From NCBI GenBank assembly GCA_028711115.1, contig JAQTSV010000001.1, positions 966,032 through 1,030,031 of the forward strand: a stretch of 64,000 nt of DNA, in the 5' to 3' direction. Position numbers and translations under genes: made by a program. This document shows positions 7,475 to 32,986 of the stretch, in pieces. Below the pieces are notes generated by a model that saw only the letters and a list, made by a program, of their open reading frames with translations, was not told the DNA's origin and ran no database searches. Position 1 is the first letter of the stretch. Every line of letters starts with the position of its first letter. This stretch comes from Candidatus Omnitrophota bacterium. Its GTDB lineage: Bacteria; Omnitrophota; Gorgyraeia; Velamenicoccales; JABMQK01.

Positions 7475-7519
7475 AATTCCTCTTTTTTAACCTAAAATTT
7501 AGCGTATGTCAAGGTAAAT

Positions 7520-8353: not shown

Positions 8354-8385
8354 TTATCGCTCCTAAAGGCAAACGCCTTTCAGAT

Positions 8386-9777: not shown

Positions 9778-9785
9778 ATTTTCCT

Positions 9786-9842: not shown

Positions 9843-9848
9843 GTAAAA

Positions 9849-13322: not shown

Positions 13323-13324
13323 AA

Positions 13325-16147: not shown

Positions 16148-16184
16148 CTTACCCACACCTCCTCTTTTGTCTTAAACATATAAA

Positions 16185-18286: not shown

Positions 18287-18485
18287 TTATATACCTTAAA
18301 TTCTCCTTTGCCTGTTTTTCGTCTATTTTGTTGATGGCGAACCCCACGTGCACATTGACATAATCTCCCACTTTAACATCGCGGAGGAAATCAATGCAAA
18401 CCTCTTTCTTTATGCCGCTGAAATCAACCAGGGCATAATTATTATCCAATATTTTTTCTACTTTACCGGGAATGGCTAAGCACAT
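18267..18485 (-). CDS. hypC: Hydrogenase maturation chaperone HypC
   Basis: 72 aa, canonical MCLAIPGKV N-terminus. Confidence 0.9.
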   Translation of the reverse strand: MCLAIPGKVEKILDNNYALVDFSGIKKEVCIDFLRDVKVGDYVNVHVGFAINKIDEKQAKENLRYINEAYSG

Positions 18486-18486
18486 T

Positions 18487-19572: not shown

Positions 19573-20053
19573 TATTTCCTAAAATCTCCATAAAAATATT
19601 TCCCAATAAATTTAATTGTTTCCGTAATGGCGCAGAAATATCTTTGCCGAATTCCAAACTCTGAGGTTGTATCCCCAATAAAAATATTTTTGTTTTAATC
19701 TGGCTCTTTATATTTTCTATCATCAATTTTGGCGACATATTGTGCGTGGAGAATCCGTACTCCGGTATCTGTTCTTCACCGATCAAGCGGATGGCTGCGA
19801 CCGGTTCATTCATGCTCACGGCATCAACCAACAGAATCACATCGGGTTTGAACCTGACAATACTTCCCATATAATTCTCCGGGCTCAAGCCTGCATCCAG
19901 GCATTCGGCTTTTATCTTGCCTTTTATTTTATTGATTAATGCCGGGCCGAAACCGTCGTCTGCCCTTAATTGATTGCCTATACCGACAATCAATACCTTT
20001 CCTTGAAATAATCTGGGTAATTCTTTTCTGAGGTCTTCCGGATTCAGGGGCAT
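19556..20053 (-). CDS. Hydrogenase maturation endopeptidase (HycI/HyaD family)
   Basis: 165 aa. VLIVGIGNQLRADDGFG and LLVDAV motifs. Confidence 0.85.
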   Translation of the reverse strand: MPLNPEDLRKELPRLFQGKVLIVGIGNQLRADDGFGPALINKIKGKIKAECLDAGLSPENYMGSIVRFKPDVILLVDAVSMNEPVAAIRLIGEEQIPEYGFSTHNMSPKLMIENIKSQIKTKIFLLGIQPQSLEFGKDISAPLRKQLNLLGNIFMEILGNNEAGK

Positions 20054-20095: not shown

Positions 20096-20707
20096 TTATA
20101 TTTTCTCCGTGGTCAGAGTAGTTTTTCTTCGGCACCTCGCACAGACTATCTTCATCCTGTCTGAGCGCGATGAAATATTGACTGCAGATTTTACATCGTC
20201 GTCGGATATTCCCAGTTCTTTTAATCTGGTCATATAAAGGGTGGGATTGGAATACGCGAGTTCGCCAAGTTCTTTGGCAATCCAAATTATGTGGTCTTTG
20301 CAACCGATGGCAGCGCCGCAAACCTCGCATAACAAAAGTTCCTTCTCTATCGATTCTTCGCAATTTCTTCTGTCGAACATAGAAAGTTCCCATTCATTGG
20401 ATAATTTTATTCCCTCTTTAGTAATGCAATAGGCCTGGCATTGGCCACAAAAAATACAGGTATCAGAATAGTGGATCATCGTCCTTTTGGGCGGCTTATC
20501 TTCCAAAGAATCTCTGTGGGCGATAGCGCCTACCGGACAGACATTTTCACAGGCCAGGCAACCCACGCATATATCCTGATTGTATTTGGGCCTGCCCCTG
20601 AAATTCGGATGCGGCTTATGAGTTTGCCGCGGAAACTTGGAAGTGTATGGGCCTTTTATCAAGGCTACCACCGCTTCCTTTAGCTCTCTTAATTTAGGAT
20701 ACTTCAT
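20096..20707 (-). CDS. NuoI/MbhN-like 2x[4Fe-4S] hydrogenase subunit with Cys-rich C-terminal extension
   Basis: 203 aa. CVGCLACENVCP and CIFCGQCQAYC cluster motifs, with extra CEVCG...CARCRR pairs. Confidence 0.75.
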   Translation of the reverse strand: MKYPKLRELKEAVVALIKGPYTSKFPRQTHKPHPNFRGRPKYNQDICVGCLACENVCPVGAIAHRDSLEDKPPKRTMIHYSDTCIFCGQCQAYCITKEGIKLSNEWELSMFDRRNCEESIEKELLLCEVCGAAIGCKDHIIWIAKELGELAYSNPTLYMTRLKELGISDDDVKSAVNISSRSDRMKIVCARCRRKTTLTTEKI

Positions 20708-21036
20708 TATTCCTTCTTATCCTCTGCATATTTATCGCAAACAGACTTAACCCACAATTTTACGCCTGAACGGTGCGCAGCCCCAGCCAAGGCATGTGCA
20801 GAAACAGGTGCGGTTAAAATAATGAAACCAATGCACAAAAACGCCTTTATCCCCATTGATGAAAAACCATTAAATAAAAATAAACCGAATAATATGCTGA
20901 CTGTGCCCAGGGTCACACACTTAGTTGAAGCCTGAAGACGATTATAGACATCAGGCAGGCGTATTAAACCCAGACAACCGAAGAAATCAAATATTATCCC
21001 GACAAATATGAAAATAATCCCTATGGTCTCATTCAT
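20707..21036 (-). CDS. Mrp antiporter-like subunit G (MnhG/MbhC-like)
   Basis: FGCLGLIRLPDVYNRLQASTK motif. Start moved to ATG 21036 (MNETIGII). The track's longer ORF overlaps the MnhF-like gene. Confidence 0.75.
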   Translation of the reverse strand: MNETIGIIFIFVGIIFDFFGCLGLIRLPDVYNRLQASTKCVTLGTVSILFGLFLFNGFSSMGIKAFLCIGFIILTAPVSAHALAGAAHRSGVKLWVKSVCDKYAEDKKE

Positions 21037-21397
21037 CAAAATTCTTCCCTTCCAAATATTTCGCCAAAGCAAGTGTGCCGATAAAACTCTGTAAAGCCCA
21101 GGCAATAGCAATGTCGATATACCAGCTTCTCTTGGTAACCACTCCCAAAATTACACAGAATCCTACAACCAATATGCCCAAGATATCCAATGCCACCGCC
21201 CTATCAGCCGCAGTTGGACCTTTGAAGATGCGATACAGACAAAACATACCACACACAAATAAAATCAAGAAACTGTATTTTAACAATGGGGATTGCCATT
21301 CCAAAATTGAATTATTAGGATAAAATAATATCACCCAGTTAACTCCGATTAAAATAATCAGCCCTAAAAGCCAACGCATAAGTTTGTTTAATTTCAT
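21029..21397 (-). CDS. Mrp antiporter-like subunit F (MnhF/MbhB-like)
   Basis: 122 aa, 3 TM. GPTAADRAVALD motif. Confidence 0.7.
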   Translation of the reverse strand: MKLNKLMRWLLGLIILIGVNWVILFYPNNSILEWQSPLLKYSFLILFVCGMFCLYRIFKGPTAADRAVALDILGILVVGFCVILGVVTKRSWYIDIAIAWALQSFIGTLALAKYLEGKNFDE

Positions 21398-21888
21398 TCG
21401 AAAATCCTCTCCAAAATCTTCTCGAATTTCCTGACAATAGTTTTTGTCGCTTTATCGGTATCCGGACTCGCCACATCCATCCAGTGCACATAAATAAAAC
21501 CATTTTCTTTATCAATATCCACGCTTAAGGTCTCGCCTGTCAAAGTAATGGAATTAGCCAAAAGAGTCAAAGATATATCTTTTTTCAATTTCGTCCTTAC
21601 TTTTACAATACCCGGTTTTATAGGCACAAACGGATGTATCACCTTATAACTAACGCCGATATTTGCCTTCAGCCACTCCCATAAAAATACAGGGATATAA
21701 TATAAAAACCACAGATAACGGCTGGGGCGTTTTAAAATATTCACGCGGCCGACAAACATATCGCCCATAAAATAAACCACTAATGCCGATACGATAATCC
21801 CTGCCAATATATGCTGAATATCAATAGGCCAAGATAAACCCAGCCAGATTACAAATACCACGATAAATAAAACTACCCAACTTCTCAC
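21394..21888 (-). CDS. Mrp antiporter-like subunit E (MnhE/MbhA-like)
   Basis: 164 aa, 2 N-terminal TM plus a soluble domain. Position and size within the Mrp gene order support the call. ATGA overlaps on both sides. Confidence 0.65.
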   Translation of the reverse strand: MRSWVVLFIVVFVIWLGLSWPIDIQHILAGIIVSALVVYFMGDMFVGRVNILKRPSRYLWFLYYIPVFLWEWLKANIGVSYKVIHPFVPIKPGIVKVRTKLKKDISLTLLANSITLTGETLSVDIDKENGFIYVHWMDVASPDTDKATKTIVRKFEKILERIFE

Positions 21889-23372
21889 AAAACTCCTCCC
21901 AAAACAGTAAAGGCATAATTAGTTCCCAGCAACAAAACACTAACCGCTGGTTTTAAGAAATATACTAAAATTCGGGGAATAAATAAAATACCTCCCAATA
22001 AACATAAAACCGCCAGGACAATCATAGCTAAACGCATAGAAACAGGGACTTCTTTAATTTTATCGAATGCCGGATTTAATTTGCCGTAAAAAATAACCTT
22101 CTGTACTTTCATAAAATAAGCCAGGGTTATAATGCTGCCTGCCACAGCTATCAAGGCCAGCCCTATGCGATTTGCCTGGACGCAGGCAATAATTATAAGC
22201 AGTTTGCTCCAGAAGCCACTAAAAGGCGGAATGCCGGAAATAGACAGCGAGGCAATCCACGACGTGTTTGCCGTTATGGGCATTTTTTCTTTCAGTCCGC
22301 CCATTTCTTTTAAATTTCTGCAGCCTGTGGCATATTCTATGGCACCTGAATTAAGAAACAATAATGACTTAAATACCGAATGATTGAATAAATGGAAAAG
22401 ACCTCCCAAAATTCCCAAAGGCGTGGCTAAACTCAAACTCAATATTACATAACCAATCTGGCTGATAGAAGAATACGCCAACAGCCTCTTCAAATCCCAT
22501 TGGCCGATTGCTAAAATTGCTCCTACCAATATGGAAATTGCTCCTAATATCGCCAAAATCATCAGTATAATTTGGTTAACGCCGAAAATATTAAAAAATA
22601 TTCTCACCAGCGAATAAATTCCCAATACCTTAATCAATACTCCTGAAAGCATCGCTGAAACAGCTGCCGGCGCAGATGAATGGGCATCAGGGAGCCAGCC
22701 GTGGAACGGCACCAAAGCGCTCTTTGTGCCGAATCCGGCAATAAACAATACGCTCACCAAAAGAATTACCGTGTTAAAACCCTTATGGGCAATGGCCAGA
22801 GAAATATCCGCCATATTCAAAGTCGATGTATAGGCGTATAGCAAACCTATACCCAAAAGGATAAAACTGGCTGCGATGGCTCCCATCACAATATATTTGA
22901 AAGCAGCCTCCAGCTCTTCTGCCTCAGTCCCAAATGCAACCAGGGCATAACTGGCAACAGAAGCAATCTCCAAACATACAAATAAATTAAAAATATCTCC
23001 GGCAAGAATCACGCCATTCATACCGGTAATCATACACATAAACAAACAATAAAATCTGTATTTATCTGTGTATTTTTCCATATACGCCAGTGCATAGATA
23101 GCTACGATAAAAGATATGAAATTCAATACCAATAACATAAACGCGCTGAATCCGTCCAGAACCAGACAAATCCCCAGGGGAGGAATCCAGCCGCCAATAT
23201 TGTAGACGATTACGCCGGATTTATTGACCAGATACAGCGCATACAAAGACAGCAAAAACAAACTAAGCGTGGCAAGAATACTTGTCAAATGACAGAATAA
23301 CTTAGATTTTCTGCCGAACATGGCTATGAGAAACGCTGCGGCCAAAGATATGATAAAAAATAAAACTAACAT
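21885..23372 (-). CDS. Mrp subunit D / NuoM-N-like proton-conducting membrane subunit (MbhH-like)
   Basis: 495 aa polytopic. WLPDAHSSAPAAVSAMLSG and SSISQIGY motifs of the NuoL/M/N family. Confidence 0.85.
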   Translation of the reverse strand: MLVLFFIISLAAAFLIAMFGRKSKLFCHLTSILATLSLFLLSLYALYLVNKSGVIVYNIGGWIPPLGICLVLDGFSAFMLLVLNFISFIVAIYALAYMEKYTDKYRFYCLFMCMITGMNGVILAGDIFNLFVCLEIASVASYALVAFGTEAEELEAAFKYIVMGAIAASFILLGIGLLYAYTSTLNMADISLAIAHKGFNTVILLVSVLFIAGFGTKSALVPFHGWLPDAHSSAPAAVSAMLSGVLIKVLGIYSLVRIFFNIFGVNQIILMILAILGAISILVGAILAIGQWDLKRLLAYSSISQIGYVILSLSLATPLGILGGLFHLFNHSVFKSLLFLNSGAIEYATGCRNLKEMGGLKEKMPITANTSWIASLSISGIPPFSGFWSKLLIIIACVQANRIGLALIAVAGSIITLAYFMKVQKVIFYGKLNPAFDKIKEVPVSMRLAMIVLAVLCLLGGILFIPRILVYFLKPAVSVLLLGTNYAFTVLGGVL

Positions 23373-23373
23373 A

Positions 23374-23712
23374 TTATCCTTTTAGCTTCCTTATCTTGGT
23401 AATATCGAAAGTATTGTATTTATCAAAAATCTTTATGGCTATTGCTACCAATAAGGCCAACACCGAAAGCCCTATGACGATAGAAATCAAAATCAATTCC
23501 TGCGGGATAGGATCTACCATTCTTAAGACTTCCTGGTTTTGCGACAATAAAGGAGCCCTTCCATGCCAACGGTAACCAATAAGAATAAAAAATAAATTAA
23601 CAGCATATTCCATAATGCTTATGCCAATAATTATCTTTATTATGTTTCTCCTTCTTAAAACACAATAAAGCCCGATACTAAACAATACCAAACATAAAAA
23701 ATAAACGCTCAT
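23374..23712 (-). CDS. Mrp subunit C / NuoK-like (MbhG-like)
   Basis: 112 aa, 3 TM, in the Mrp gene order. Confidence 0.7.
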   Translation of the reverse strand: MSVYFLCLVLFSIGLYCVLRRRNIIKIIIGISIMEYAVNLFFILIGYRWHGRAPLLSQNQEVLRMVDPIPQELILISIVIGLSVLALLVAIAIKIFDKYNTFDITKIRKLKG

Positions 23713-24170
23713 TCTTCCTTCTTTGCTCTCTTGAGAATCACCAACACTATAAAAATCGAAAACAATCCCACTGCCACCTTAATCGCTATGGCGATATTAT
23801 AAAAAGGAATTGTGCCTGCGCTGAATAAAGTAAAAGGCCTGCCTTTGCTGGCAAAGAAATTGATTAAAAAGTGCCCGCCTAAAAAACCCAATGCGGCAAT
23901 GGTCAAAAATAATAAACCGCCCACGCTTTCTAAAACAGCTGCCTTTGCTTCTGATAATTTTCTTAAAGCAATATCTTTACCGAAAGCAATCATAACCTGG
24001 ACAAATGATAAGGCAATAATTAAGCCGCCGGCGAATCCGCCACCGGGGCTGATATGGCCGTGCAAGACAATATAAATTCCAAAAAGCAGAATCACCACCG
24101 CTGTCAGGCGCGTTACAGTCTTTACCATAAAACTCATACCTATTTCTTCTTTTTTGTTTGAATCAACCAT
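23709..24170 (-). CDS. Mrp subunit B-like (MnhB domain)
   Basis: 153 aa. HGHISPGGGFAGG motif. Confidence 0.75.
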   Translation of the reverse strand: MVDSNKKEEIGMSFMVKTVTRLTAVVILLFGIYIVLHGHISPGGGFAGGLIIALSFVQVMIAFGKDIALRKLSEAKAAVLESVGGLLFLTIAALGFLGGHFLINFFASKGRPFTLFSAGTIPFYNIAIAIKVAVGLFSIFIVLVILKRAKKEE

Positions 24171-24171
24171 A

Positions 24172-24699
24172 TCAGGCCCTTGGTTTATTCCTGCCGATTT
24201 TACGCATAACCGCAGCCACTCCTATGACAGCTGCAAACAGAATTGTTGCCTCGCCTAAAGTATCATATGCACGGAAATCTAAAATTACAGATGTAATAAA
24301 ATTTGTGGCGCCTGTTTTATCCAGACTGCCGGTCAAAATCTCCTTGGCTATTTTCATTTCCGGATTGCCAAAAACAGAAATTTCCTTTAGTGCTAAGAAT
24401 ACAAATATTAAAAATATCACTATAAAACAAAGTGTAGAGAATGTATTAAAAAACCATCTTCCGTCTCTAACCAAAGGCAGGTCCTGCTTTAAGGTAGCTC
24501 TTATCAAAATAATCAAGCAGAGAATTTCTGCCACCAATTGCGTGATCGCCAGATCCGGAGCCTTAAGCAGTAAAAATCCCAGACATAAACCTATTCCCAC
24601 CGTTCCCAAGGCAATAACGCTGGAAATCATATCCTTGGCTTCCACGGCGATGATTGCCGCGGATATCATAAATAATAAGAGTAACTGAAGTTCTAACAT
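24172..24699 (-). CDS. MbhD/MbhE-like membrane subunit (MrpA C-terminal / MrpB N-terminal-like)
   Basis: 175 aa polytopic. DLAITQLVAE and ILDFRAYDTLGE motifs. Confidence 0.65.
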   Translation of the reverse strand: MLELQLLLLFMISAAIIAVEAKDMISSVIALGTVGIGLCLGFLLLKAPDLAITQLVAEILCLIILIRATLKQDLPLVRDGRWFFNTFSTLCFIVIFLIFVFLALKEISVFGNPEMKIAKEILTGSLDKTGATNFITSVILDFRAYDTLGEATILFAAVIGVAAVMRKIGRNKPRA

Positions 24700-24700: not shown

Positions 24701-26524
24701 TCACAAAATAACTAGCATTATCACAATCATTCCCAGCAATATCCACACGCAATAAGTGGGAAGTATCCCGTTATGCAGATAACTAAATAAAGAACTTACG
24801 CCAAATACCGCTCTCTTTCCCATTTCGTAAATATCAAACAATTTCTCTTCTGCCCTTTTATATAAAAATTGCAACAGGGGAATCTCTCTTACTGTATTGT
24901 AAAATTCTGCGCCTGAAGGATTCATTTGCGGATTCTTTTCCAAATCTTCACCGCCGATAAATTGCCTGACTTCCCTGGATTTTAGGCTGCCTAAAAGATA
25001 AATTATAAATCCGATTAATAAACCCACCAATATTAGTATCGTGGCCAAGGATGAATTCCACATACCGCTGAAAGTTAAATGCGTCTGCATGCTGGGCACG
25101 ATAAATAATCTGAGCGGAATCTGCGTGGCCCATACGCCGAAAATAATACACAGGCCAGCTAAAATAACCGGTGCTATATTCATTACAGCCGGTACTTCTT
25201 TTGCATCGTCTATTTTCTTAGCGGAAGGCTGACCCAGGAAAATCGCGTGTATCAGTTTCATAAAACTTGCCAGCGTTAATGCGCTGCCAAACATGGCCAC
25301 AGAAAGCCACAAAGGCCACAACTTTGTCCCCGTCTTGCCCAACTCTATAATCCCCTGATAGATCATCCACTTGGATACAAAACCGTTAAAAGGCGGAATG
25401 CCTGAGATGGAAAACGAGGCAATGGCAAAAGCAATAAAAGTAACTGGCATGAATTTTGCCAATCCGCCTAATTTACTCAAATCATCTGTCTTGGCCCGAT
25501 ACTCTACATTGCCGCCCGAAAGAAAGAGGCAACTTTTATAAACTGCGTTATTTAACATATGGAATAAACCTCCGGCAATGCCGATAGGATTAGCAGTGCC
25601 GATTCCTAAAATCATATAACCGACCTGGCTGACAGCATGATAAGATAACAATTTCTTAAAATTATGCTGCACCAAAGCCATCATTACTGCGGCAATAATT
25701 GTAATTGAACCTATAATCATTAAAAATAAGCTTATTGCTGAATTGGGCTGAATGTCAAAAATATTCACGGAAATCCTGAACAAAAGATATATGCCCAAAA
25801 GCTTATCTAAAGAAGCCGGCAAAAATGCCATAACCGGCGTAGGCGCAGTTTCTGCAGAATCCGGAATCCAGGTATGCAAAGGCATGGCGCCGGATTTGGC
25901 AAATGCGCCCAAGGCCAGGCAGATAAAAGAAAAAACTGCCAGATTATTAGTCAAAGGAATATGAATCCTGCTGATTTCCAAGAACGGGCTGAGCTGAAAT
26001 ACGGCGGCCATACCTAATAATATTAAGGCATCTGAACCGCCGATAATAATAAACGCCTTCTTTGCGCTTGCCGGTGCATCTTCTGTTCCCATGGCAATAA
26101 GCAGATATAAAGTTATCCCTAATACACCCCAGAATGTCAGAAATAACAAGAAATTATTGGAAATTACTGCACCGATAGAAGCAGAAATAGTCCAAAGCAC
26201 ATAGGCGTAATATTTATTTAATTCCTCTTTGTCTTTCATAAAACCCGAGGAATATAACACAATCAAAAAACCAAACAAACCTATAAACAGCGCAATAAAA
26301 GCAGAAAGATTATCCACCAGGAAATACTGGAGCGTATATATGTAGGAATTATCCAGATAAAACTTCGACTTCAGCATGAATACAGCGATACAAACGATAA
26401 AGGTCGCAAAAGAAGCAATAATGGCCAATGCGCAAGCCAGAGTTTTATTCTTCTTGGGCAGGATAAAAGAAACCAAACCCAAAATAAACGGCACAATCAA
26501 ACTCGATAAAAGCAGATTTCTCAT
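24701..26524 (-). CDS. MrpA/NuoL-like large antiporter-type subunit
   Basis: 607 aa polytopic. HTWIPDSAETAPTPVMAFL and LSYHAVSQVGYM motifs. Confidence 0.85.
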   Translation of the reverse strand: MRNLLLSSLIVPFILGLVSFILPKKNKTLACALAIIASFATFIVCIAVFMLKSKFYLDNSYIYTLQYFLVDNLSAFIALFIGLFGFLIVLYSSGFMKDKEELNKYYAYVLWTISASIGAVISNNFLLFLTFWGVLGITLYLLIAMGTEDAPASAKKAFIIIGGSDALILLGMAAVFQLSPFLEISRIHIPLTNNLAVFSFICLALGAFAKSGAMPLHTWIPDSAETAPTPVMAFLPASLDKLLGIYLLFRISVNIFDIQPNSAISLFLMIIGSITIIAAVMMALVQHNFKKLLSYHAVSQVGYMILGIGTANPIGIAGGLFHMLNNAVYKSCLFLSGGNVEYRAKTDDLSKLGGLAKFMPVTFIAFAIASFSISGIPPFNGFVSKWMIYQGIIELGKTGTKLWPLWLSVAMFGSALTLASFMKLIHAIFLGQPSAKKIDDAKEVPAVMNIAPVILAGLCIIFGVWATQIPLRLFIVPSMQTHLTFSGMWNSSLATILILVGLLIGFIIYLLGSLKSREVRQFIGGEDLEKNPQMNPSGAEFYNTVREIPLLQFLYKRAEEKLFDIYEMGKRAVFGVSSLFSYLHNGILPTYCVWILLGMIVIMLVIL

Positions 26525-27720
26525 CTGGCTCCTAATTTAGCCCTTATCTGTTCAGTCTTTCTTTGAGAAAGTTTTATCAAATCCTGCTGGGAATAGACTG
26601 TTTTATTTTTCTTGTTATTCGCATCGATTACCGTTACTCTTTCTGTGCAGCAATAACAAGGGTCAATCGCCGCCAAAATTATAGTGGCATCAGAAATTGT
26701 CTCGCCGATTAAGGCCTCTTTATAAGTAGGCAAATTCATATATGTGGGCGCTCTTACTTTATGCCTTACAGGCCTGTTGGTGCCGTCGCTTCTTACATAA
26801 TGAAAACATTCTCCCCGCGGCGCCTCGATATGCCCGATTCCTTCTCCGCAAGGAATATCTTTCACATTGTCATAGATAGGCCCTTTCGGCATTTTTTGCA
26901 TACATTCAATAACTATATTGATAGATTCCAGCGTTTCTAAAATTCTTACTACTGCCTTGGCAAACACATCTCCTTCTATCTGTGTAATAACATTCCATTT
27001 AACTTTGTCATAAGCAGCATAAGGATCGTCTTTTCTTACATCGTTGGCAATACCGCTTGCGCGCGCAGTCGGGCCCAAGGCGCAATAATCTATGCAATCC
27101 TGTTTTGTCAATACGCCCACGCCTTTTAATCTCGCGTGCAGAACCGGATCGTCCAGAACCGCTTTTTTAATCATCTGCACAAAATCTATGAGTTTATTTA
27201 ACCTGGTAATTACGCCGGCTAGAGATTTTTCTTCGAAATCCCTTCTTACGCCGCCCACTCTCATCATGGCATAATTATTTCTGTTGCCGCTCAATTCCTC
27301 AAATATATCCAAAACCGTTTCTCTCTCTTTCCATGCCCACATATAAACAGTATTGTATCCTAAGAAATGACCGGCTAAACCTATCCATAAAAGATGCGAA
27401 TGTATTCTTTCTAATTCTGCAATAATTGTCCTTATATAATTTGCACGTTCCGGCACAACACAATCATTACCTAAAATATCTTCTACGGCTCTTACATAAG
27501 CCAAGGGATGGCTGGTGGAACAAATTCCGCAGATTCTTTCCACCACAAAGGCCACCTGATCGAATGTCTTTAATTCCGAGAGCTTTTCGATGCCGCGGTG
27601 GTTATAGCCAATATTGGCAATTGCATCTACAATCTTTTCGCCCTCTACCACAAGCTGGAAAAACTCCGGTTCTTCTTGCAGAGGATGATAAGGCCCTATA
27701 GGGATTATTGTCTTTGCCAT
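26521..27720 (-). CDS. Group 4 membrane-bound [NiFe]-hydrogenase large subunit (MbhL/EchE/HycE/NuoD-like)
   Basis: 399 aa. Both Ni-Fe ligand pairs are present: RICGICSTSH near the N-terminus and DPCYCCTER near the C-terminus, followed by a 38-aa tail consistent with protease processing. Confidence 0.9.
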   Translation of the reverse strand: MAKTIIPIGPYHPLQEEPEFFQLVVEGEKIVDAIANIGYNHRGIEKLSELKTFDQVAFVVERICGICSTSHPLAYVRAVEDILGNDCVVPERANYIRTIIAELERIHSHLLWIGLAGHFLGYNTVYMWAWKERETVLDIFEELSGNRNNYAMMRVGGVRRDFEEKSLAGVITRLNKLIDFVQMIKKAVLDDPVLHARLKGVGVLTKQDCIDYCALGPTARASGIANDVRKDDPYAAYDKVKWNVITQIEGDVFAKAVVRILETLESINIVIECMQKMPKGPIYDNVKDIPCGEGIGHIEAPRGECFHYVRSDGTNRPVRHKVRAPTYMNLPTYKEALIGETISDATIILAAIDPCYCCTERVTVIDANNKKNKTVYSQQDLIKLSQRKTEQIRAKLGAR

Positions 27721-28194
27721 TTAAACTCCCCTATCTCTTATTGCGCCTTTATCCCACTCTTTGTAATCAGCCCTTAAAGGATATACGCCTTCGGGCCAAT
27801 CGTCAGAAAGCAACAACCTCTTTAGATTGGGATGACCTGTAAAATCTACGCCAATGAGCTCGTGTATTTCTCGTTCAATCCATTCCGCTCCTTTTATGAG
27901 CGGGGTTATGGAATCAACCTTGGGTTTGTCTCTGTCCAATTTTACCCTGATGGAAATTATGAGATTCAATCTCTCAATAGTAAAATGATAAATAATCTCG
28001 ATATTAAACCTTGTATCAATACCTGAGGCAATATTAAACCTCGCGCCTATATCCATAAAAAGGTATTCTGTTAATTCTTTTATATCTTTGGGGTCGATTT
28101 CAAAATAAACCCTGGTTTCAGATTTATCCAGGAAATCTTTTATGCTCTGTTTAAATTTTATCTTAATGCTTTTTAACAGTTCTTCTCTGTTCAT
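27721..28194 (-). CDS. NuoC/MbhK-like hydrogenase subunit
   Basis: 157 aa. AEWIEREIHELIGVDFTGHPN motif. Confidence 0.8.
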   Translation of the reverse strand: MNREELLKSIKIKFKQSIKDFLDKSETRVYFEIDPKDIKELTEYLFMDIGARFNIASGIDTRFNIEIIYHFTIERLNLIISIRVKLDRDKPKVDSITPLIKGAEWIEREIHELIGVDFTGHPNLKRLLLSDDWPEGVYPLRADYKEWDKGAIRDRGV

Positions 28195-28625
28195 TTTTTA
28201 TTTGCGTTGGCCTTTATCTTTTCAATTGCCTTTGCTATGCCGGCGATTATGGCCTCGGGCTTTGGAGGGCAACCGGGAATATAAACATCCACAGGTATTA
28301 TTTTATCCAAAGGCACCGGGCAATTATAAGAGTTTATAAACATCCCCCGCGAAAGAGAACACTCGCCGATTGCCACCACAATTACCGGCTTTGGCGCTTG
28401 CTCATAAATTTCCTTTATGCGCGGAATACATTTACGGTTTACAGAACCGGTGCAGACAAGCACGTCGGCGTGTCTGATGCTTCCCACCAACACCATGCCA
28501 AAACGTTCAATATCAAACCTCGGCGTCAAACAGTCCAAAATCTCAATATCGCAGTTATTACAGCTGCCTGTGGAAAGGTGAAATACCCAGGGTGATTTTA
28601 ATAAAGCTTTTAGTTTGATGCTCAT
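28191..28625 (-). CDS. NuoB/MbhJ-like hydrogenase small subunit ([4Fe-4S])
   Basis: 144 aa. GSCNNCDIE, AIGECS, IPGCPP cluster ligands. Confidence 0.85.
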   Translation of the reverse strand: MSIKLKALLKSPWVFHLSTGSCNNCDIEILDCLTPRFDIERFGMVLVGSIRHADVLVCTGSVNRKCIPRIKEIYEQAPKPVIVVAIGECSLSRGMFINSYNCPVPLDKIIPVDVYIPGCPPKPEAIIAGIAKAIEKIKANANKK

Positions 28626-29545
28626 AATCCTCTGCCTGCTAATACAAGCGCCAAGATTGCCAGAATAGTCATCGGTCCCCAGAAAAATCTCAATGCCTGG
28701 TCAACGCGCAGTCTTGGATTTGTATTCCTGATAACGATAATCAAAACAATTATCGCCACAAAACCCAATAAACTCCTTACAGCTGCCAGACCATTAAAAT
28801 TGAATCCGCCCAAAAATAGAATCACAATAAAATACGGCAGCACAAACAGCATCATCGCTTTGGTCAATTTAAAAATCGCCAGCGACGGTCCGGAATATTC
28901 TATCAACGCTCCGCCTGCGAGTTCTGTCTCTGCCTCAGCCATATCAAAAGGGACAAGCCCTAATTTTGCCTGCACGCAAAACAGAATAACAATAAAGCTT
29001 AAAACTCCGGACCAGTTACTTATAAAAGCGCCGTACGCCGACTGATAACTGATAATCTCCCCCAATTTAATGCTCAGACCGGATTTTGCTACCGGAACAA
29101 AAACCGCTAAAATAAAAGGCAATTCATAAGCCATAACCAGCTTCATCTCTCTGGAAGCGCCGATGCTTGCCAAAGGATTGCGCGAAGCAAAACCTCCCAG
29201 AATTATACCTAATGAAGGTAAGACCAGAAAATACAAAACCACAATCAAATCTCCGAAAAATGTTTTCTGTGGCCAGATATTCACTAACCAAAGCAATGTA
29301 GTAACAATCATAATGCTGATAATTCCCAGAATCGGTGAAAATAAAAACGTAATTTTAGACGCCCCCTTAGGCAAAAGCAATTCCTTACCCAAAAGTTTTA
29401 CAATATCCGTAAACGGCTGCAAAATCGGCGGGCCAACACGATATTGAAGCCTGGCAGTGACTTTGCGGTCTATCCAGCTTATCAAAAGCCCGGCTGTCAC
29501 GCTTACAAAGAATCCAAAAAATATAAAGTAAAAAATCATTGTCAT
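28622..29545 (-). CDS. NuoH/MbhM/HycD-like membrane subunit
   Basis: 307 aa polytopic. RKVTARLQYRVGP and PFDMAEAETEL motifs. Confidence 0.85.
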   Translation of the reverse strand: MTMIFYFIFFGFFVSVTAGLLISWIDRKVTARLQYRVGPPILQPFTDIVKLLGKELLLPKGASKITFLFSPILGIISIMIVTTLLWLVNIWPQKTFFGDLIVVLYFLVLPSLGIILGGFASRNPLASIGASREMKLVMAYELPFILAVFVPVAKSGLSIKLGEIISYQSAYGAFISNWSGVLSFIVILFCVQAKLGLVPFDMAEAETELAGGALIEYSGPSLAIFKLTKAMMLFVLPYFIVILFLGGFNFNGLAAVRSLLGFVAIIVLIIVIRNTNPRLRVDQALRFFWGPMTILAILALVLAGRGL

Positions 29546-29548: not shown

Positions 29549-30043
29549 TTATGCCTTTTCTCTTATCCAGTGCGTAGAATGTGCAACTATATTATCTGTA
29601 ACCGAATAGATATGTTTTTCTTCGTTTGGTTCTGTATCATTCAAAGACAATGCTCCGTAAGGACAGGTTGGCACGCAAATCGGCTGATCTTTTTGTTTGC
29701 GCCTGTCCAAACATAAATCGCATTTTGAAGTTATGTAAGGAACCAACTCGGGATAAATAGTCCCATAAGGGCAAGCGTGAACGCAGCTTTTACAGCCAAT
29801 GCACCTCATATAATACCTTCTGAGAATTTTATCTTGCTGTTTTTCCAGTGCATTCTGAGGGCAGGAATTTACACAATGCGGCTCTTCGCATTTTCTGCAA
29901 ATCAATACATATGTGATTAATTCCCTCAAAGAATACATTCCATTATTTTCAGGATGATAGAAATAACTGCAATCCACAACGCATTTCTGGCAAGCGGTCG
30001 AACAAATATCCAAATCCACAAATAGTTTCTTCGGTTTTTCCAT
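29549..30043 (-). CDS. HycB/CooF-like polyferredoxin (four Cys-cluster motifs)
   Basis: CSTACQKCVVDC, CRKCEEPHCVNSCP, CIGCKSCVHACP, CDLC...CVPTCP. Start set to ATG 30043 (MEKPKK). The track start at 30055 is a TTG overlapping the upstream gene. Confidence 0.8.
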   Translation of the reverse strand: MEKPKKLFVDLDICSTACQKCVVDCSYFYHPENNGMYSLRELITYVLICRKCEEPHCVNSCPQNALEKQQDKILRRYYMRCIGCKSCVHACPYGTIYPELVPYITSKCDLCLDRRKQKDQPICVPTCPYGALSLNDTEPNEEKHIYSVTDNIVAHSTHWIREKA

Positions 30044-30045
30044 AG

Positions 30046-30870
30046 CTAATCCCAAACTTCGGGAAAATTCTTTATCTTGTCATAAGTAAATACCGGTCCG
30101 TCTTTACAGCAATAAAAATTCCCCACCCGGCAATGCCCACACTTGCCGATACCGCAGGACATATTCTTTTCCATAGAAAGATACAGCTGGCTGTCCTTAA
30201 AACCCATCTCTAACAGCTTGAAAGTGGCAAACTTCATCATTATCGGCGGGCCGCAGACCACAGCTACGGCATTATTTATATCCACGTCCTTTTTATCCAA
30301 AATAGTGGTGACAACTCCGACATTGCCTTTCCAGGAGCTATCCGATTTATCCACGGTAAGTCTTACATCAATTTCTTTTCCTGCGCGCCACTGTTCGACT
30401 AACTTTTTATAAATGATATCATTGGGAGTGCGCGCCCCGTATCTTAAAATAATTTTTTTGTAATCTTTCTTATCGTTTAGAAGAGAGAATAACAAACTGC
30501 GCAAAGGCGCCAAACCTACGCCGCCTCCCACGATATAAATTTCTTTACCTTTAAAATCCTGTAAAGGATAGCCTTTGCCGTAAGGACCTCTGACACCTAA
30601 TTCCGTATTTTTTCCGAGCGAATGTAATTTATCGGTGACTTTGCCGACCTTCATTATGGTAATATCAAACTGTTCTTTAACCGCAGGATTTGAAGAAGGC
30701 GTAAATGGCGCTTCGCCCAATCCCGGGACAGATAATTCTACAAACTGGCCGGTCTCAAACGAAAAACCGCCGTTAGAATTATTAAACACGAATGTCTTAA
30801 TAGTAGAACTCTCCTCAATTACATCAGCCAGTTCTATCTTTGCGGGATTGTAAGGATTATTTTCTCTCAT
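30046..30870 (-). CDS. FAD/NAD(P)-binding [2Fe-2S] oxidoreductase subunit (sulfhydrogenase gamma HydG / AsrB-like)
   Basis: 274 aa. GQFVELSVPGLGEAPFT, IVGGGVGLAPLRS, C-terminal CGIGKCGHCRVG..C. Confidence 0.8.
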   Translation of the reverse strand: MRENNPYNPAKIELADVIEESSTIKTFVFNNSNGGFSFETGQFVELSVPGLGEAPFTPSSNPAVKEQFDITIMKVGKVTDKLHSLGKNTELGVRGPYGKGYPLQDFKGKEIYIVGGGVGLAPLRSLLFSLLNDKKDYKKIILRYGARTPNDIIYKKLVEQWRAGKEIDVRLTVDKSDSSWKGNVGVVTTILDKKDVDINNAVAVVCGPPIMMKFATFKLLEMGFKDSQLYLSMEKNMSCGIGKCGHCRVGNFYCCKDGPVFTYDKIKNFPEVWD

Positions 30871-31937
30871 ACGCCTGATTTTGCCTCAGAAACCAGATTC
30901 TTTAATATTCTCCTTATATCTATTTTTGCGGGACATCCTGTAATGCACCTGCCACAACCCGTGCAGGCAATCTTGCCTGACACATTAGGAAAGAAATTAA
31001 ATTTCTTATCGTAACGGTTACGTAACCTCTGAAACAGGCGCTTTCTGGGATTTGCACCGCCAGCAACCACGGCAAAATCTTTATAAAGACAGGCATCCCA
31101 CATTTTATATCTTGTATTGCTGTCGCCTTTCTTAGAGTCTCCCAAAAAGAAACAATGGCAGGTAGGACAGATAAAGTTACAACAACCGCATTCAACGCAT
31201 GTCTGGATTTCGTCTTTCCAAATCTGCGAATCAAAACCTTTTTGCATTACGCCACGGAGTTGGGTTTTATCGGGAATCCCGTATTTCTTAACATTATCTT
31301 CGACTGCCTTAATCGTATTGCTTCTTACTTCTTCTCTCTTTTGCAGGTGATTGCCGGAAACCAGCTGGATTTTATCCTTGTATTGCACAATATATCTATT
31401 CGCCCTTTCACTGGCAGCCTCTACGACACATGAGTCTCCGATATCACAGACACCCATATCGTATATCTTTTCCGGATATGGTTGGATACCCAGCGCCAAA
31501 CAAAAACATGTATCTAAAGGATTTGTGCAATCGCTGGCGATAATAAACATCGACTGGCGCTTGTTTATATAAAAAGGATCCTTGAAGTCGCCATTTAAGA
31601 ATACAAAATCCGTAATCTCTAATCCCACGAGATCGCAATTTTTGGCTCCGATGAGCATAACCGGCTTATCGCTGTTGTCTTCTAGCCCTTTGAAATCCTT
31701 TGAAACTTTCTCTTTTGAAGAAAATACAAATTGTTTCAAAGGATCCTGCGCCCTTACTCCTCCGAGGACCAATTCCTGCAAATCCCCTTTGTATTCCTGC
31801 CAGAAGAGGAGCTTTCTTGTGCCGGCCTTCCAGTCAAATTGTGTACCTTTGCCTGTTAAATAGAAGGTGCGGAAGTTCTTTGCCAAATCAGCCAAGATAT
31901 CCAGGAAATTTGTTTTGTAAATATAATATGTGGCCAT
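30867..31937 (-). CDS. Iron-sulfur subunit (sulfhydrogenase beta HydB / AsrA-like)
   Basis: 356 aa. CVECGCCNFICPTCHCF and CTGCGRCITGCP motifs. ATGA overlap with the HydG-like gene. Confidence 0.75.
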   Translation of the reverse strand: MATYYIYKTNFLDILADLAKNFRTFYLTGKGTQFDWKAGTRKLLFWQEYKGDLQELVLGGVRAQDPLKQFVFSSKEKVSKDFKGLEDNSDKPVMLIGAKNCDLVGLEITDFVFLNGDFKDPFYINKRQSMFIIASDCTNPLDTCFCLALGIQPYPEKIYDMGVCDIGDSCVVEAASERANRYIVQYKDKIQLVSGNHLQKREEVRSNTIKAVEDNVKKYGIPDKTQLRGVMQKGFDSQIWKDEIQTCVECGCCNFICPTCHCFFLGDSKKGDSNTRYKMWDACLYKDFAVVAGGANPRKRLFQRLRNRYDKKFNFFPNVSGKIACTGCGRCITGCPAKIDIRRILKNLVSEAKSGV

Positions 31938-31938: not shown

Positions 31939-32277
31939 CTATTCCTCTACCTCAATGCTATCGATATAACACTCCTCGCCGGCAATCAGTTCATTTGACT
32001 TTGAATTACACAAAGGGCAAGAAAAATTTATCTCTCTGGTCAAACTGAATATCTTGCCGCACGATAAACATTTAACTTTAGGATTGATTCTCTTTACCTC
32101 TAACTTGGCATGGGCCAAAGGCGTATTAACGGATGCGATTTTAAAAGCCTCTCTGATAGAATCGGGAGTGCCGTGGGCTAATCTGCCTAAAAAAAACACC
32201 GCGCTGCTAACCTTTTTACCCTCAATCTTATTTTTTATACGTTCGACTTCTTTTTTTACCAGACTGAATTCGTGCAT
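31939..32277 (-). CDS. hypA: Hydrogenase nickel-insertion protein HypA
   Basis: 112 aa. MHEFS N-terminus and Zn site CLSCG...CPLCNS. Confidence 0.9.
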   Translation of the reverse strand: MHEFSLVKKEVERIKNKIEGKKVSSAVFFLGRLAHGTPDSIREAFKIASVNTPLAHAKLEVKRINPKVKCLSCGKIFSLTREINFSCPLCNSKSNELIAGEECYIDSIEVEE

Positions 32278-32918: not shown

Positions 32919-32957
32919 ATATTAAAAGATTGTGAAACTTTTCCCAATCAAAGTTAA

Positions 32958-32986
32958 ATTTTAACCCCCCTGCAAGAATATGTCAA
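32958..32986 (-). promoter_or_regulatory. Putative sigma70 promoter of the rex-hypA-hydrogenase unit (TTGACA-17-TAAAAT)
   Basis: Minus strand reads ttcTTGACAtattcttgcaggggggtTAAAATtt. -35 = 32986..32981, -10 = 32963..32958. Followed by a TTTCACAATCTT Rex-like half-site. Confidence 0.5.

What the first reader, a model, noticed from the sequence alone, without database searches (positions are those of the whole stretch)
29549..31937. NAD(P)H-type donor module (AsrA/HydB-like plus AsrB/HydG-like plus HycB-like polyferredoxin) in place of formate dehydrogenase or CODH
In formate- or CO-linked group-4 hydrogenases, a HycB/CooF polyferredoxin wires the substrate-oxidising enzyme to the membrane arm. 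Here the polyferredoxin (29549..30043) is preceded by a PyrK/AsrB-like flavoprotein with a GGGVGLAP nucleotide-binding motif and a [2Fe-2S] site. An AsrA/HydB-like Fe-S protein overlaps it by ATGA. This is the same beta-gamma pair that gives Pyrococcus sulfhydrogenase its NAD(P)H link. Together with Rex as the operon's first gene, this suggests an ion-translocating NAD(P)H:H+ oxidoreductase. It could run as H2-driven NAD(P)+ reduction conserving energy, or as ion-gradient-driven H2 evolution from NAD(P)H. I am not aware of a biochemically characterised enzyme of this composition.
Basis: inference. Interest (0 to 1): 0.65.

Follow-up and report, generated by a model that had tools for sequence, protein, structure and literature searches.

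The report
Hun hydrogenase operon's NAD(P)H-type input module
Three adjacent genes encode a flavin and iron-sulfur module, like the NADPH-handling half of a known soluble hydrogenase, wired into a membrane-bound ion-pumping hydrogenase; the cluster is real, widespread and already named "Hun", but whether it runs on NAD(P)H or on ferredoxin has never been tested.

Summary
Window 29549-31937 (minus strand) holds three tightly packed genes. One is a 356-aa Fe-S protein like sulfhydrogenase beta/AsrA. One is a 274-aa FNR/PyrK-type flavoprotein like sulfhydrogenase gamma/AsrB, with every FAD, NAD(P) and [2Fe-2S] motif intact. One is a 16-Cys HycB-type polyferredoxin. They sit inside one operon: rex-hypA-[these three]-NuoH/B/C/D-like [NiFe] hydrogenase-Mrp-like subunits-NuoI/HycF-like-hycI-hyp. 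A near-consensus Rex operator lies at the promoter. The same gene order recurs in 63 of 64 informative loci from more than 15 phyla, including the cultured Desulfosarcina variabilis. It is not new as a gene cluster. Glass et al. 2021 named this 16-gene operon "hun" (HunA-P), with the catalytic-subunit signature CGIC...CYCC, which is present here. Two other MAG papers noted the asrA/asrB/cooF-like "oxidoreductase module". Those papers assumed ferredoxin as donor or left the function unknown, and I found no biochemistry. It includes fold matches to the NADPH-bound P. furiosus SHI gamma (TM 0.89) and beta (TM 0.70-0.76), nucleotide motifs invariant across phyla, and Rex control. Donor, direction and ion coupling remain inference.

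The parts
32958..32986 (-). Best sigma-70-like promoter of the region (TTGACA-17-TAAAAT, 11/12)
   Evidence: a consensus match only
32930..32947 (-). Rex operator-like palindrome TTGGGAAAAGTTTCACAA (1 mismatch to TTGTGAAnnnnTTCACAA), between the -10 hexamer and the rex ATG
   Evidence: Only site with 2 or fewer mismatches in 64 kb; conserved upstream of rex in L001, L002, L009, L004, L008, L013 and L019
32277..32918 (-). rex, redox-sensing repressor, first gene of the operon
   Evidence: NF003995 257.6 bits against cutoff 126; Pfam Put_DNA-bind_N + CoA_binding
31939..32277 (-). hypA, nickel metallochaperone
   Evidence: PF01155 2e-23
30867..31937 (-). HunA: sulfhydrogenase-beta/AsrA-like Fe-S protein; 15 invariant Cys
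   Evidence: AF2 model best fold match 9nf0_B/9nez_B, TM 0.70-0.76
30046..30870 (-). HunB: FNR/PyrK-type FAD + NAD(P) + [2Fe-2S] flavoprotein (sulfhydrogenase-gamma/AsrB-like)
   Evidence: AF2 pLDDT 88, best fold match 9nf0_C (NADPH-bound SHI), TM 0.89
29549..30043 (-). HunC: HycB/CooF/DmsB-type polyferredoxin, 16 Cys, four [4Fe-4S]-type motifs
28622..29545 (-). HunD: NuoH/HycD/MbhM-like membrane subunit
   Evidence: PF00146 1e-64
28191..28625 (-). HunE: NuoB-like hydrogenase small subunit
   Evidence: PF01058 1e-28
27721..28194 (-). HunF: NuoC-like subunit
   Evidence: PF00329 7e-29
26521..27720 (-). [quoted passage not shown]
   Evidence: (MbhL 3e-87, HycE 2e-82)
24701..26524 (-). HunH: MrpA/NuoL-like antiporter-type subunit (607 aa)
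   Evidence: PF00361 5e-54
24172..24699 (-). HunI: MbhD+MbhE-like
23709..24170 (-). HunJ: MnhB-like
23374..23712 (-). HunK: MnhC/NuoK-like
21885..23372 (-). HunL: MrpD/MbhH-like antiporter-type subunit; the TM5 Glu and the TM7, TM8 and TM12 Lys align with MbhH
   Evidence: 6cfw_H 9e-80 over the full length, alignment
21394..21888 (-). HunM: MrpE-like
21029..21397 (-). HunN: MrpF-like
20707..21111 (-). HunO: MrpG-like (the real start is probably the internal ATG near 21036)
20096..20707 (-). HunP: NuoI/HycF-like 2x[4Fe-4S] subunit with a Cys-rich C-terminal extension
   Evidence: best solved match E. coli HycF 7z0s_F 3e-16, against MbhN 5e-13
16185..20053 (-). Maturation genes: hycI, short hypF (C-terminal half only), hypC, hypD, hypE

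Best explanation
The three genes are HunA, HunB and HunC of a 16-subunit Hun complex, an Mrp-Mbh-type group-4 [NiFe] hydrogenase. Its electron-input/output module is a sulfhydrogenase beta-gamma-like NAD(P)(H) oxidoreductase, not a formate dehydrogenase or CODH. Proposed path: NAD(P)H binds HunB (FAD, then [2Fe-2S]). Electrons pass through the [4Fe-4S] clusters of HunA, then the four clusters of the HycB-like HunC. They continue to the HycF/NuoI-like HunP, the NuoB-like HunE and the [NiFe] site of HunG. The NuoH-like and Mrp-like membrane arm couples this to H+/Na+ movement. NAD(P)H to H2 is uphill by about 90 mV under standard conditions (established thermodynamics). The complex would therefore either use the ion gradient or very low H2 to vent NADH electrons as H2, or run backwards as an ion-pumping H2:NAD(P)+ oxidoreductase. 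Rex at the promoter suggests induction when NADH accumulates, which favours the H2-evolving, NADH-disposing direction in this fermentative Omnitrophota bacterium. Shown: gene content, operon structure, cofactor motifs, folds, conserved synteny and the Rex box. Inferred: the donor identity, the direction and the ion coupling.
For: (1) One operon: overlaps or spacers of 1-4 nt, with no convincing terminator between genes. (2) HunB keeps every FNR-family motif invariant in 33 homologues of 61-83% identity: PFTPSS, MxxGxxT, GGGxGLAP, CGPPxMM and four [2Fe-2S] Cys. Position 147 is always R or K, as in NADPH-dependent SHI gamma. (3) The AF2 model of HunB (pLDDT 88) best matches the gamma chain of the 'NADPH-bound P. 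furiosus SHI complex' 9nf0_C (TM 0.89, E 2e-27). All further matches are NAD(P)H flavoproteins: b5R, PyrK, NfnA, NqrF. HunA best matches SHI beta (TM 0.70-0.76), and all 15 invariant Cys align to Cys of SHI beta. (4) Of 64 related loci with enough downstream sequence, 63 carry HunB + HunC + NuoB/C/D. Of those 63, 62 also carry NuoH. An MrpA-like gene is present in 55 of 58 loci long enough to show it. The loci span Omnitrophota, Planctomycetia, Atribacterota, Elusimicrobia, Spirochaetota, Nitrospirota, Desulfosarcina/Desulfococcus, Clostridia, Sumerlaeota, Hydrogenedentota, Fermentibacteria and Auribacterota. The catalytic subunit carries the CYCC signature in 62 of 65 loci, including variants with no Mrp-like subunits in the locus. 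(5) HunP is closest to HycF, the HycB-docking subunit of E. coli FHL. (6) A Rex operator sits at the promoter. rex lies directly upstream and co-oriented in 20 of 72 loci across four phyla. (7) HunL keeps the charged residues of MbhH. (8) Context from the literature: each Ace Lake Omnitrophota MAG has only one hydrogenase, either 3b, 3d or A3 (all NAD(P)-linked) or this Mrp-linked '4g' type (PMC8542988).
Against: No biochemical data exist for any Hun complex. The only paper that names it predicts ferredoxin as donor. Scores to ShyB/ShyC, HydB/HydG and AsrA/AsrB are all below the NCBIfam equivalog cutoffs, so function cannot be transferred by membership. NAD(P)H-driven H2 evolution is endergonic at standard state. 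A four-cluster polyferredoxin and the NuoI-like subunit could accept ferredoxin as well. Rex regulons include genes that do not use NADH, and rex is adjacent in only about 28% of loci. NADH versus NADPH is unresolved: the basic residue at position 147 resembles NADPH enzymes, but NADH-specific NqrF also has one (own knowledge).
Confidence: 0.55

Rival explanations
1. Ferredoxin-driven Hun, the published reading. HunABC only relay electrons from reduced ferredoxin to the [NiFe] site. The complex works like P. furiosus Mbh, evolving H2 and pumping Na+/H+, and the nucleotide site of HunB is vestigial or regulatory.
For: Proposed by Glass et al.. HydDB types these large subunits as 4g, 'predicted ferredoxin-coupled'. 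MbhL is the best solved match to HunG. The reaction is exergonic, so pumping is easy to rationalise.
Against: An Mbh needs no such module, because MbhN accepts ferredoxin directly. All NAD(P)- and FAD-binding motifs of HunB are invariant across phyla, which is unexpected for a vestigial site. The argument from AsrAB rests on AsrAB taking electrons from ferredoxin, whereas Salmonella Asr is described as NADH-linked (own knowledge, not checked here). The characterised relatives SHI and SHII are NAD(P)H enzymes.
Confidence: 0.2
2. Three-way junction. The complex exchanges electrons with both ferredoxin (at HunC or HunP) and NAD(P)(H) (at HunB). It would act as an ion-translocating ferredoxin:NAD(P)+ oxidoreductase with H2 as an overflow valve, or co-oxidise Fd and NAD(P)H to make H2.
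For: Both kinds of site are plausibly present. Soluble and reduced-membrane-arm variants keep the same HunABC plus catalytic core, which shows modular use. An NfnAB-like pair in the same window shows that the cell links the Fd, NADH and NADPH pools.
Against: No second flavin or known bifurcating site is evident. HunB's FAD corresponds to the non-bifurcating FAD of NfnA/PyrK-type proteins (role assignment from own knowledge). Nothing here tests ferredoxin binding.
Confidence: 0.17
3. The module serves a catalytic partner encoded elsewhere, such as a formate dehydrogenase. Some relatives carry a molybdopterin gene next to the asrA/asrB/cooF-like genes, so the complex would be a formate hydrogenlyase with an NAD(P) side branch.
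For: Saganbacteria and some MAGs carry a molybdopterin protein beside or between these genes. HunC and HunP resemble HycB and HycF.
Against: The scanned ORFs of the window show no molybdopterin or CODH gene. None of the 80 genome loci has room for one between HunB and HunC: gaps are about 0.9 kb or less, and the one inspected holds a TPR protein.
Confidence: 0.05
4. A separate sulfite, polysulfide or sulfur reductase (AsrABC- or sulfhydrogenase-type sulfur reduction) that merely sits next to the hydrogenase.
For: Sources annotate homologues as 'sulfite reductase subunit B' or 'sulfhydrogenase subunit beta (sulfur reductase)'. AsrB is the top NCBIfam hit, 235 bits.
Against: No AsrC or siroheme domain follows; the next gene is a plain polyferredoxin. 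AsrA and AsrB scores are below cutoff (109 against 323; 235 against 289). Genes overlap or abut the hydrogenase genes. Synteny with the hydrogenase holds in 63 of 64 loci.
Confidence: 0.03

Closest known systems
hun operon / Hun supercomplex (Glass et al. 2021, bioRxiv 10.1101/536078)
   Same: The same 16 genes in the same order (HunA-P). HunAB are AsrAB-like and HunC is an Fe-S protein. HunG has the CGIC...CYCC signature and the subunits are Mrp-like. It was reported in Omnitrophica, Atribacteria, Elusimicrobia, Firmicutes, Bacteroidetes and Kosmotoga. The window operon fits on every point.
   Different: Here rex and hypA precede hunA, and a Rex operator sits at the promoter. The paper predicts ferredoxin as donor, whereas my analysis favours NAD(P)(H). 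There is no experimental characterisation in either case.
P. furiosus soluble hydrogenase I (sulfhydrogenase) beta and gamma subunits, PDB 9nez/9nf0
   Same: HunA and HunB match over their full length. All cluster-binding Cys and the FAD/NAD(P) motifs are shared. Fold TM is 0.70-0.89.
   Different: SHI is a soluble group-3b enzyme whose beta-gamma pair docks on its own small subunit. Here the pair is followed by a HycB-type polyferredoxin and a membrane-bound group-4 enzyme. Sequence scores are far below the ShyB/C and HydB/G equivalog cutoffs.
P. furiosus membrane-bound hydrogenase Mbh (PDB 6CFW)
   Same: Catalytic core and Mrp-like arm: MbhL 3e-87 and MbhH 9e-80, with conserved charged residues.
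   Different: Mbh takes electrons directly from ferredoxin at MbhN and has no HunABC-like module. Hun has a second large antiporter-like subunit (607 aa) and a HycF-like rather than MbhN-like NuoI homologue.
E. coli formate hydrogenlyase (PDB 7Z0S) and Thermococcus Fdh-Mfh-Mnh / CODH-Mch-Mnh
   Same: The modular logic is shared: a substrate-oxidising module, then a HycB/CooF polyferredoxin, then HycF/NuoI-like and NuoB-like subunits, then [NiFe]. HycE matches at 2e-82 and HycF is the best match to HunP.
   Different: The substrate module is an NAD(P)H-type flavoprotein pair, not a molybdopterin FDH or a Ni-CODH.
Salmonella anaerobic sulfite reductase AsrABC
   Same: AsrA-like and AsrB-like domain architectures.
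   Different: No AsrC. Scores are below the TIGR02910/TIGR02911 cutoffs. The genomic partner is a hydrogenase.
Respiratory complex I
   Same: The idea is shared: an NAD(P)H-oxidising peripheral module feeds a NuoB/C/D/H/I core and antiporter-like subunits.
   Different: The N-module here is unrelated to NuoEFG. The acceptor site is a [NiFe] centre for protons, not a quinone pocket.

Membership tests
Hun complex (Glass et al. 2021) | 16-gene order HunA-P (AsrA-like, AsrB-like, Fe-S, NuoH, NuoB, NuoC, NuoD, Mrp-like x8, NuoI) | tested here: met
   against the description
Hun complex (Glass et al. 2021) | Large-subunit metal-site motifs CGIC (L1) and CYCC (L2) | tested here: met
   RICGIC and DPCYCC in the window; CYCC in 62 of 65 related loci
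Group-3b sulfhydrogenase beta/gamma (ShyBC, HydBG) | Score above the NCBIfam equivalog cutoff | tested here: not met
   ShyB 154 against 690; HydB 121 against 750; ShyC 182 against 600; HydG 181 against 650
Group-3b sulfhydrogenase beta/gamma (ShyBC, HydBG) | Same fold and cofactor-binding residues | tested here: met
Group-3b sulfhydrogenase beta/gamma (ShyBC, HydBG) | Encoded with group-3 alpha/delta hydrogenase subunits | tested here: not met
   Neighbours are group-4 NuoB/C/D/H-like subunits
Anaerobic sulfite reductase AsrABC | AsrA and AsrB above the TIGRFAM cutoffs, with an AsrC siroheme subunit downstream | tested here: not met
   109.5 against 323 and 235 against 288.6; the downstream gene is a Fer4_11 polyferredoxin with no NIR_SIR domain
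FNR-superfamily NAD(P)H flavoprotein | FAD_binding_6 + NAD_binding_1 fold with the GxGxxP and CGPxxM motifs and the FAD-contact motif | tested here: met
FNR-superfamily NAD(P)H flavoprotein | Actual binding and oxidation of NADH or NADPH | not testable with these tools
   Needs an enzyme assay or a ligand-bound structure
Group-4 Mrp-Mbh-type [NiFe] hydrogenase | [NiFe]-ligating CxxC pairs in a NuoD-like subunit, with NuoB/C/H/I and Mrp-like subunits | tested here: met
Group-4 Mrp-Mbh-type [NiFe] hydrogenase | Redox-coupled ion translocation | not testable with these tools
   Only conservation of the charged residues of MbhH could be checked
Formate hydrogenlyase-type wiring | HycB-type 4x[4Fe-4S] polyferredoxin plus a HycF-like subunit | tested here: met
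   16 Cys in four motifs; HycB 7z0s_B 1e-6; HycF is the best match
Formate hydrogenlyase-type wiring | Molybdopterin FdhH (or CooS) in the cluster | tested here: not met
   None found in the scanned ORFs of the window or between HunB and HunC in 80 loci
Rex regulon | Rex protein and an 18-bp operator TTGTGAAnnnnTTCACAA at the promoter | tested here: met
   Rex 257 bits against 126; operator with 1 mismatch at 32930-32947, unique in the window and conserved in 7 other loci. Binding itself was not tested

The most novel reading that the evidence does not exclude
Hun is a reversible, ion-translocating NAD(P)H:H+ oxidoreductase: in effect a hydrogenase-type complex I whose NADH module is sulfhydrogenase beta-gamma-like rather than NuoEFG. 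It would let fermenters in many uncultured phyla vent NADH electrons as H2 at the expense of the ion gradient. It would also let H2 oxidisers and acetogens conserve energy while reducing NAD(P)+. This would be a third kind of chemiosmotic pyridine-nucleotide coupling site beside Rnf and complex I.
Probability: 0.4. Interest if true: 0.8.

Novelty: new member of a known kind. Interest (0 to 1): 0.5.

Why it matters
Hun-type operons are common in Omnitrophota, Atribacterota, Planctomycetota, Elusimicrobiota, Spirochaetota and other anaerobes that dominate sediments and the subsurface. Metabolic reconstructions currently book them as ferredoxin-dependent '4g' hydrogenases. If the donor or acceptor is NAD(P)(H), the redox and energy budgets inferred for these organisms change: how glycolytic NADH is disposed of, whether H2 uptake conserves energy, and how low H2 must be kept by partners. 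It would also add a new module combination to the evolutionary series linking group-4 hydrogenases and complex I. Two cultured carriers (Desulfosarcina variabilis, found here; Kosmotoga, from the literature) make the question directly testable.

Tried and rejected
(1) My first Rex-box search used the wrong spacing (N6) and gave only chance-level hits. Aligning rex upstream regions from eight loci revealed the 7-4-7 palindrome, which a corrected search confirmed. (2) Ten full-text searches covered sulfhydrogenase + Mrp, asrA/asrB/cooF, HydB/HydG + Mbh, group 4g, Hun and Kosmotoga. They found three genomic descriptions and no enzymology. The paper behind PDB 9nez/9nf0 was not in the library. (3) I correlated divergence of HunA/B/C with divergence of the hydrogenase core across loci. 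HunC tracks NuoB and NuoH (rho 0.76 and 0.67). HunA tracks only weakly (about 0.3) and HunB not at all, because its identity range is narrow. I treat this as inconclusive for co-inheritance of HunAB. (4) NADH versus NADPH specificity could not be called from the residue at position 147: it is always R or K, like SHI gamma, but NADH-specific NqrF is a counter-example known to me. (5) The sulfite-reductase reading was rejected for lack of AsrC. (6) A formate- or CO-linked reading for this genome was rejected for the window only. The rest of the 1.57-Mb contig could not be inspected. (7) Terminator-like hits inside the operon are short stems within coding sequence and were not taken as evidence of separate transcription.
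Full report
OBSERVATION. The finding's coordinates hold three minus-strand ORFs: 30867-31937 (356 aa), 30046-30870 (274 aa) and 29549-30043 (164 aa from the ATG; the mechanical ORF list starts it at a TTG at 30055). The junctions were read directly from the sequence. The first two genes overlap as ATGA. Two nucleotides separate the second from the third. Three separate the third from the NuoH-like gene. One separates hypA from the first.

The 356-aa protein carries Fer4_22. It is closest to sulfhydrogenase beta (ShyB 4e-45, HydB 5e-35) and AsrA (2e-31). The 274-aa protein has FAD_binding_6, NAD_binding_1 and the PyrK-type [2Fe-2S] domain. It is closest to AsrB (7e-70) and sulfhydrogenase gamma (1e-53). 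The third is a Fer4_11 polyferredoxin of the DmsB/HycB/CooF kind, with 16 cysteines in four cluster motifs. All scores to named equivalogs are below their curated cutoffs, so these are relatives, not members, of ShyBC/HydBG/AsrAB.

OPERON. The three genes lie inside one compact minus-strand operon. Its order is as follows:
- rex and hypA;
- the three genes of the finding;
- NuoH-, NuoB-, NuoC- and NuoD-like genes;
- a 607-aa MrpA/NuoL-like gene;
- MbhD/E-, MnhB-, MnhC-, MrpD-, MrpE-, MrpF- and MrpG-like genes;
- a NuoI/HycF-like gene;
- hycI, a short hypF, hypC, hypD and hypE.

The NuoD-like subunit has both [NiFe]-ligating cysteine pairs (RICGIC, DPCYCC). Its best solved matches are MbhL of P. 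furiosus (3e-87) and HycE of E. coli (2e-82). The MrpD-like subunit aligns end to end with MbhH (9e-80) and keeps the charged membrane residues. The NuoI-like subunit is closest to HycF (3e-16), the subunit that docks HycB in E. coli formate hydrogenlyase, rather than to MbhN. I scanned 21 of the window's 44 ORFs of 180 aa or more, plus the shorter operon genes. None encodes a molybdopterin formate dehydrogenase, a CODH or an AsrC-like siroheme protein.

REGULATION. The best sigma-70-like site of the region (TTGACA-17-TAAAAT) lies upstream of rex. My first operator search used the wrong spacing and found nothing above chance. Aligning the regions upstream of rex from eight loci exposed a conserved palindrome. 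A corrected search with TTGTGAAnnnnTTCACAA then found a single site in the whole 64-kb window. It has one mismatch and lies at 32930-32947, between the -10 hexamer and the rex start codon. About 0.6 sites with two or fewer mismatches are expected per window. The chance of one falling in this 169-bp spacer is therefore of order 0.002 (my arithmetic). The operon is thus very probably Rex-controlled. Binding itself was not tested.

RELATIVES. The window is from a Candidatus Omnitrophota MAG: the proteins are identical to MDD5005846.1 and MDD5005845.1 on a 1.57-Mb contig. Contigs carrying homologues of the 356-aa protein at 44-65% identity show the same order of genes in JGI, ENA and NCBI assemblies. 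One Spirochaetales contig is a soluble-looking variant, described below.

A scan of one genome per GTDB species found more than 536 confirmed relatives. I compared the best 80 with every protein of the window operon. Of 64 loci with enough downstream sequence, 63 carry the flavoprotein, the polyferredoxin and NuoB/C/D. Of those 63, 62 also carry NuoH. An MrpA-like gene is present in 55 of the 58 loci long enough to show it. The loci come from the following taxa:
- Omnitrophota, Planctomycetia, Atribacterota, Elusimicrobia, Spirochaetota and Nitrospirota;
- the cultured Desulfosarcina variabilis, and Desulfococcus;
- Clostridia, Sumerlaeota, Hydrogenedentota, Fermentibacteria and Aegiribacteria;
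- Auribacterota (including Ca. Tritonobacter lacicola), Kiritimatiellae and an actinomycete.

rex lies directly upstream and co-oriented in 20 of 72 loci. Caveat: these are the 80 closest relatives. More distant ones, presumably true group-3b and Asr proteins, were not returned.

WHAT IS ALREADY KNOWN. Three papers describe this arrangement.
- Matheus Carnevali et al. 2019 (PMC6349859) called it an 'enigmatic' group-4 hydrogenase in Saganbacteria. They noted cooF-, asrA- and asrB-like genes, there together with a molybdopterin protein, as a possible oxidoreductase module. They named Omnitrophica and Zixibacteria as closest relatives.
- Meheust et al. 2020 (10.1101/765248) listed an 'Mbh-Mrp-oxidoreductase type' of unknown function in Elusimicrobia lineages they predict to be acetogens.
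- Glass et al. 2021 (10.1101/536078) named the 16-gene operon hun (HunA-P). They reported it in Atribacteria, Firmicutes, Omnitrophica, Elusimicrobia, Bacteroidetes and cultured Kosmotoga. They typed HunG as a distant '4g' hydrogenase with the signature CGIC...CYCC. They predicted that HunABC take electrons from ferredoxin, by analogy with AsrAB.

The window operon matches hun gene for gene and has the CYCC signature, as do 62 of 65 related loci. Williams et al. 2021 (PMC8542988) book the Omnitrophota versions as ferredoxin-coupled 4g enzymes. I found no enzymology for any of them in ten searches. The gene cluster is therefore known and named. Its donor is an untested assumption.

DONOR: NAD(P)H OR FERREDOXIN? 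Several results bear on this.

First, the flavoprotein is highly conserved: 61-83% identity among 33 sampled homologues. Every motif that defines an FNR-type NAD(P)H flavoprotein is invariant: PFTPSS (the FAD contact), MxxGxxT, GGGxGLAP, CGPPxMM and the four [2Fe-2S] cysteines. Residue 147, after the second strand of the nucleotide domain, is always Arg or Lys. A vestigial site would not be expected to stay invariant across so many phyla.

Second, the AlphaFold model (pLDDT 88) superposes best on the gamma chain of the entry titled 'NADPH-bound Pyrococcus furiosus SHI complex' (9nf0_C, TM 0.89). The next matches are cytochrome b5 reductases, PyrK, NfnA and NqrF, all pyridine-nucleotide enzymes.

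Third, the Fe-S partner (model pLDDT 79) best matches SHI beta (TM 0.70-0.76). All 15 of its invariant cysteines align with cysteines of SHI beta. The pair therefore has the full cofactor set of the NADPH-oxidoreductase half of SHI.

Fourth, Rex control ties expression to the NADH/NAD+ ratio.

Fifth, in the Ace Lake Omnitrophota each MAG has a single hydrogenase. It is either this type or one of three NAD(P)-linked types (3b, 3d, A3). That fits functional equivalence.

Against this stand several points. There is no direct evidence. Membership tests for ShyBC/HydBG/AsrAB fail on score. NAD(P)H to H2 is uphill by about 18 kJ/mol at standard state (established values of -320 and -414 mV). A four-cluster polyferredoxin could also accept ferredoxin. 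The published argument for ferredoxin rests on AsrAB being ferredoxin-dependent. As far as I know the Salmonella enzyme is NADH-linked, but I did not verify this here.

MECHANISM PROPOSED. NAD(P)H reduces the FAD of HunB. Electrons then pass through the HunB [2Fe-2S] cluster, the HunA clusters and the four HunC clusters. They continue to the two clusters of HycF-like HunP, the NuoB-like cluster and the [NiFe] site. The NuoH-like and Mrp-like arm couples the reaction to H+/Na+ movement.

The NAD(P)H/H2 gap is about as large as the ferredoxin/H2 gap that drives pumping in Mbh, but of opposite sign. The same machinery could therefore use the ion gradient to push NADH electrons onto protons. That reaction also becomes exergonic on its own below roughly 50-100 Pa H2. 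Alternatively the complex could pump ions while H2 reduces NAD(P)+. Rex derepression at high NADH points to the H2-evolving, NADH-disposing direction in this organism. The occurrence in predicted acetogens and in a sulfate reducer suggests the uptake direction elsewhere. These last steps are inference.

VARIANTS. A Spirochaetales contig carries HunABC plus NuoB/C/D and NuoI, with no membrane subunit within 10 kb. An Auribacterota contig has HunA-HunB-TPR protein-HunC-NuoH-NuoB/C/D-NuoI-HycI with no antiporter-like subunits. Several Spirochaetota place the Mrp genes divergently upstream. All keep the CYCC catalytic subunit. The constant unit is therefore HunABC plus the catalytic core, and the membrane arm varies.

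VERDICT. The composition and wiring logic are right, and the NAD(P)H link is better supported than the published ferredoxin assumption. However, the cluster is already described and named, and the function is unproven. I rate it a new member of a known, uncharacterised kind, of moderate interest. The interest lies in a specific, testable disagreement with the literature about the donor, in a complex that is widespread in uncultured anaerobes and present in at least two cultured genera.

Noticed in passing
window 8386-11610 (minus strand): There is an NfnAB/Sud-like pair. It consists of a GltD-like protein (Fer4_20 + Pyr_redox_2, 463 aa) and a second PyrK-like protein (NAD_binding_1 + DHODB_Fe-S_bind, 280 aa). 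An ApbE flavin transferase follows. The cell thus has a separate link between the Fd, NADH and NADPH pools about 20 kb from the hun operon.
   Followed up: partly
window 18487-19572 (minus strand); also L004 4306-5463 and L008 4306-5496: HypF is only 361-396 aa and consists of the C-terminal Kae1-like half (HypF_C + HypF_C_2). It lacks the acylphosphatase, zinc-finger and YrdC-like parts of canonical HypF. The same short form sits near hun in two other loci. I did not look for where the N-terminal functions are encoded.
   Followed up: no
L007 10001-15226 (Spirochaetales MAG JAFGHO010000057.1): A soluble-looking variant: HunA-HunB-HunC-NuoB-NuoC-NuoD-NuoI, with no NuoH or Mrp-like gene within 10 kb on either side. 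It would be a group-4-type catalytic core used as a cytoplasmic NAD(P)H-type hydrogenase, unless the membrane genes lie elsewhere in the genome.
   Followed up: partly
L084 9950-18600 (Auribacterota MAG JAPLCW010000175.1): A variant with a TPR-repeat protein inserted between HunB and HunC. NuoH is the only membrane subunit in the locus, and there are no antiporter-like subunits.
   Followed up: partly
whole window 1-64000: All 44 ORFs of 180 aa or more are on the minus strand, and GC skew is negative in every 2-kb bin. This is an unusually complete strand bias over 64 kb, consistent with one replichore with co-directional genes.
   Followed up: no
window 30867-31937 (HunA model): Beyond SHI beta, the next fold matches of HunA are FdhB/FrhB-family F420/FAD-binding subunits. 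These include 7bkb_E, 8rvu_E, the F420-dependent sulfite reductase, HCAR and FrhB. This hints that the sulfhydrogenase-beta/AsrA family derives from the FrhB fold. I could not assess whether a flavin site survives.
   Followed up: no
L015 (Atribacterota DAOUTX010000032.1) 1-9137: A rex-hunA pair sits immediately downstream of a different group-4 hydrogenase cluster, which has L2 motif CIAC and only 45% identity to HunG. This genome therefore carries two group-4 enzymes side by side.
   Followed up: no
window 15569-16156 and 11613-13391: A rubrerythrin gene follows the hyp genes, and a PolX-type DNA polymerase (pol beta thumb + PHP domain) lies further downstream. Both look like ordinary anaerobe housekeeping genes.
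   Followed up: no
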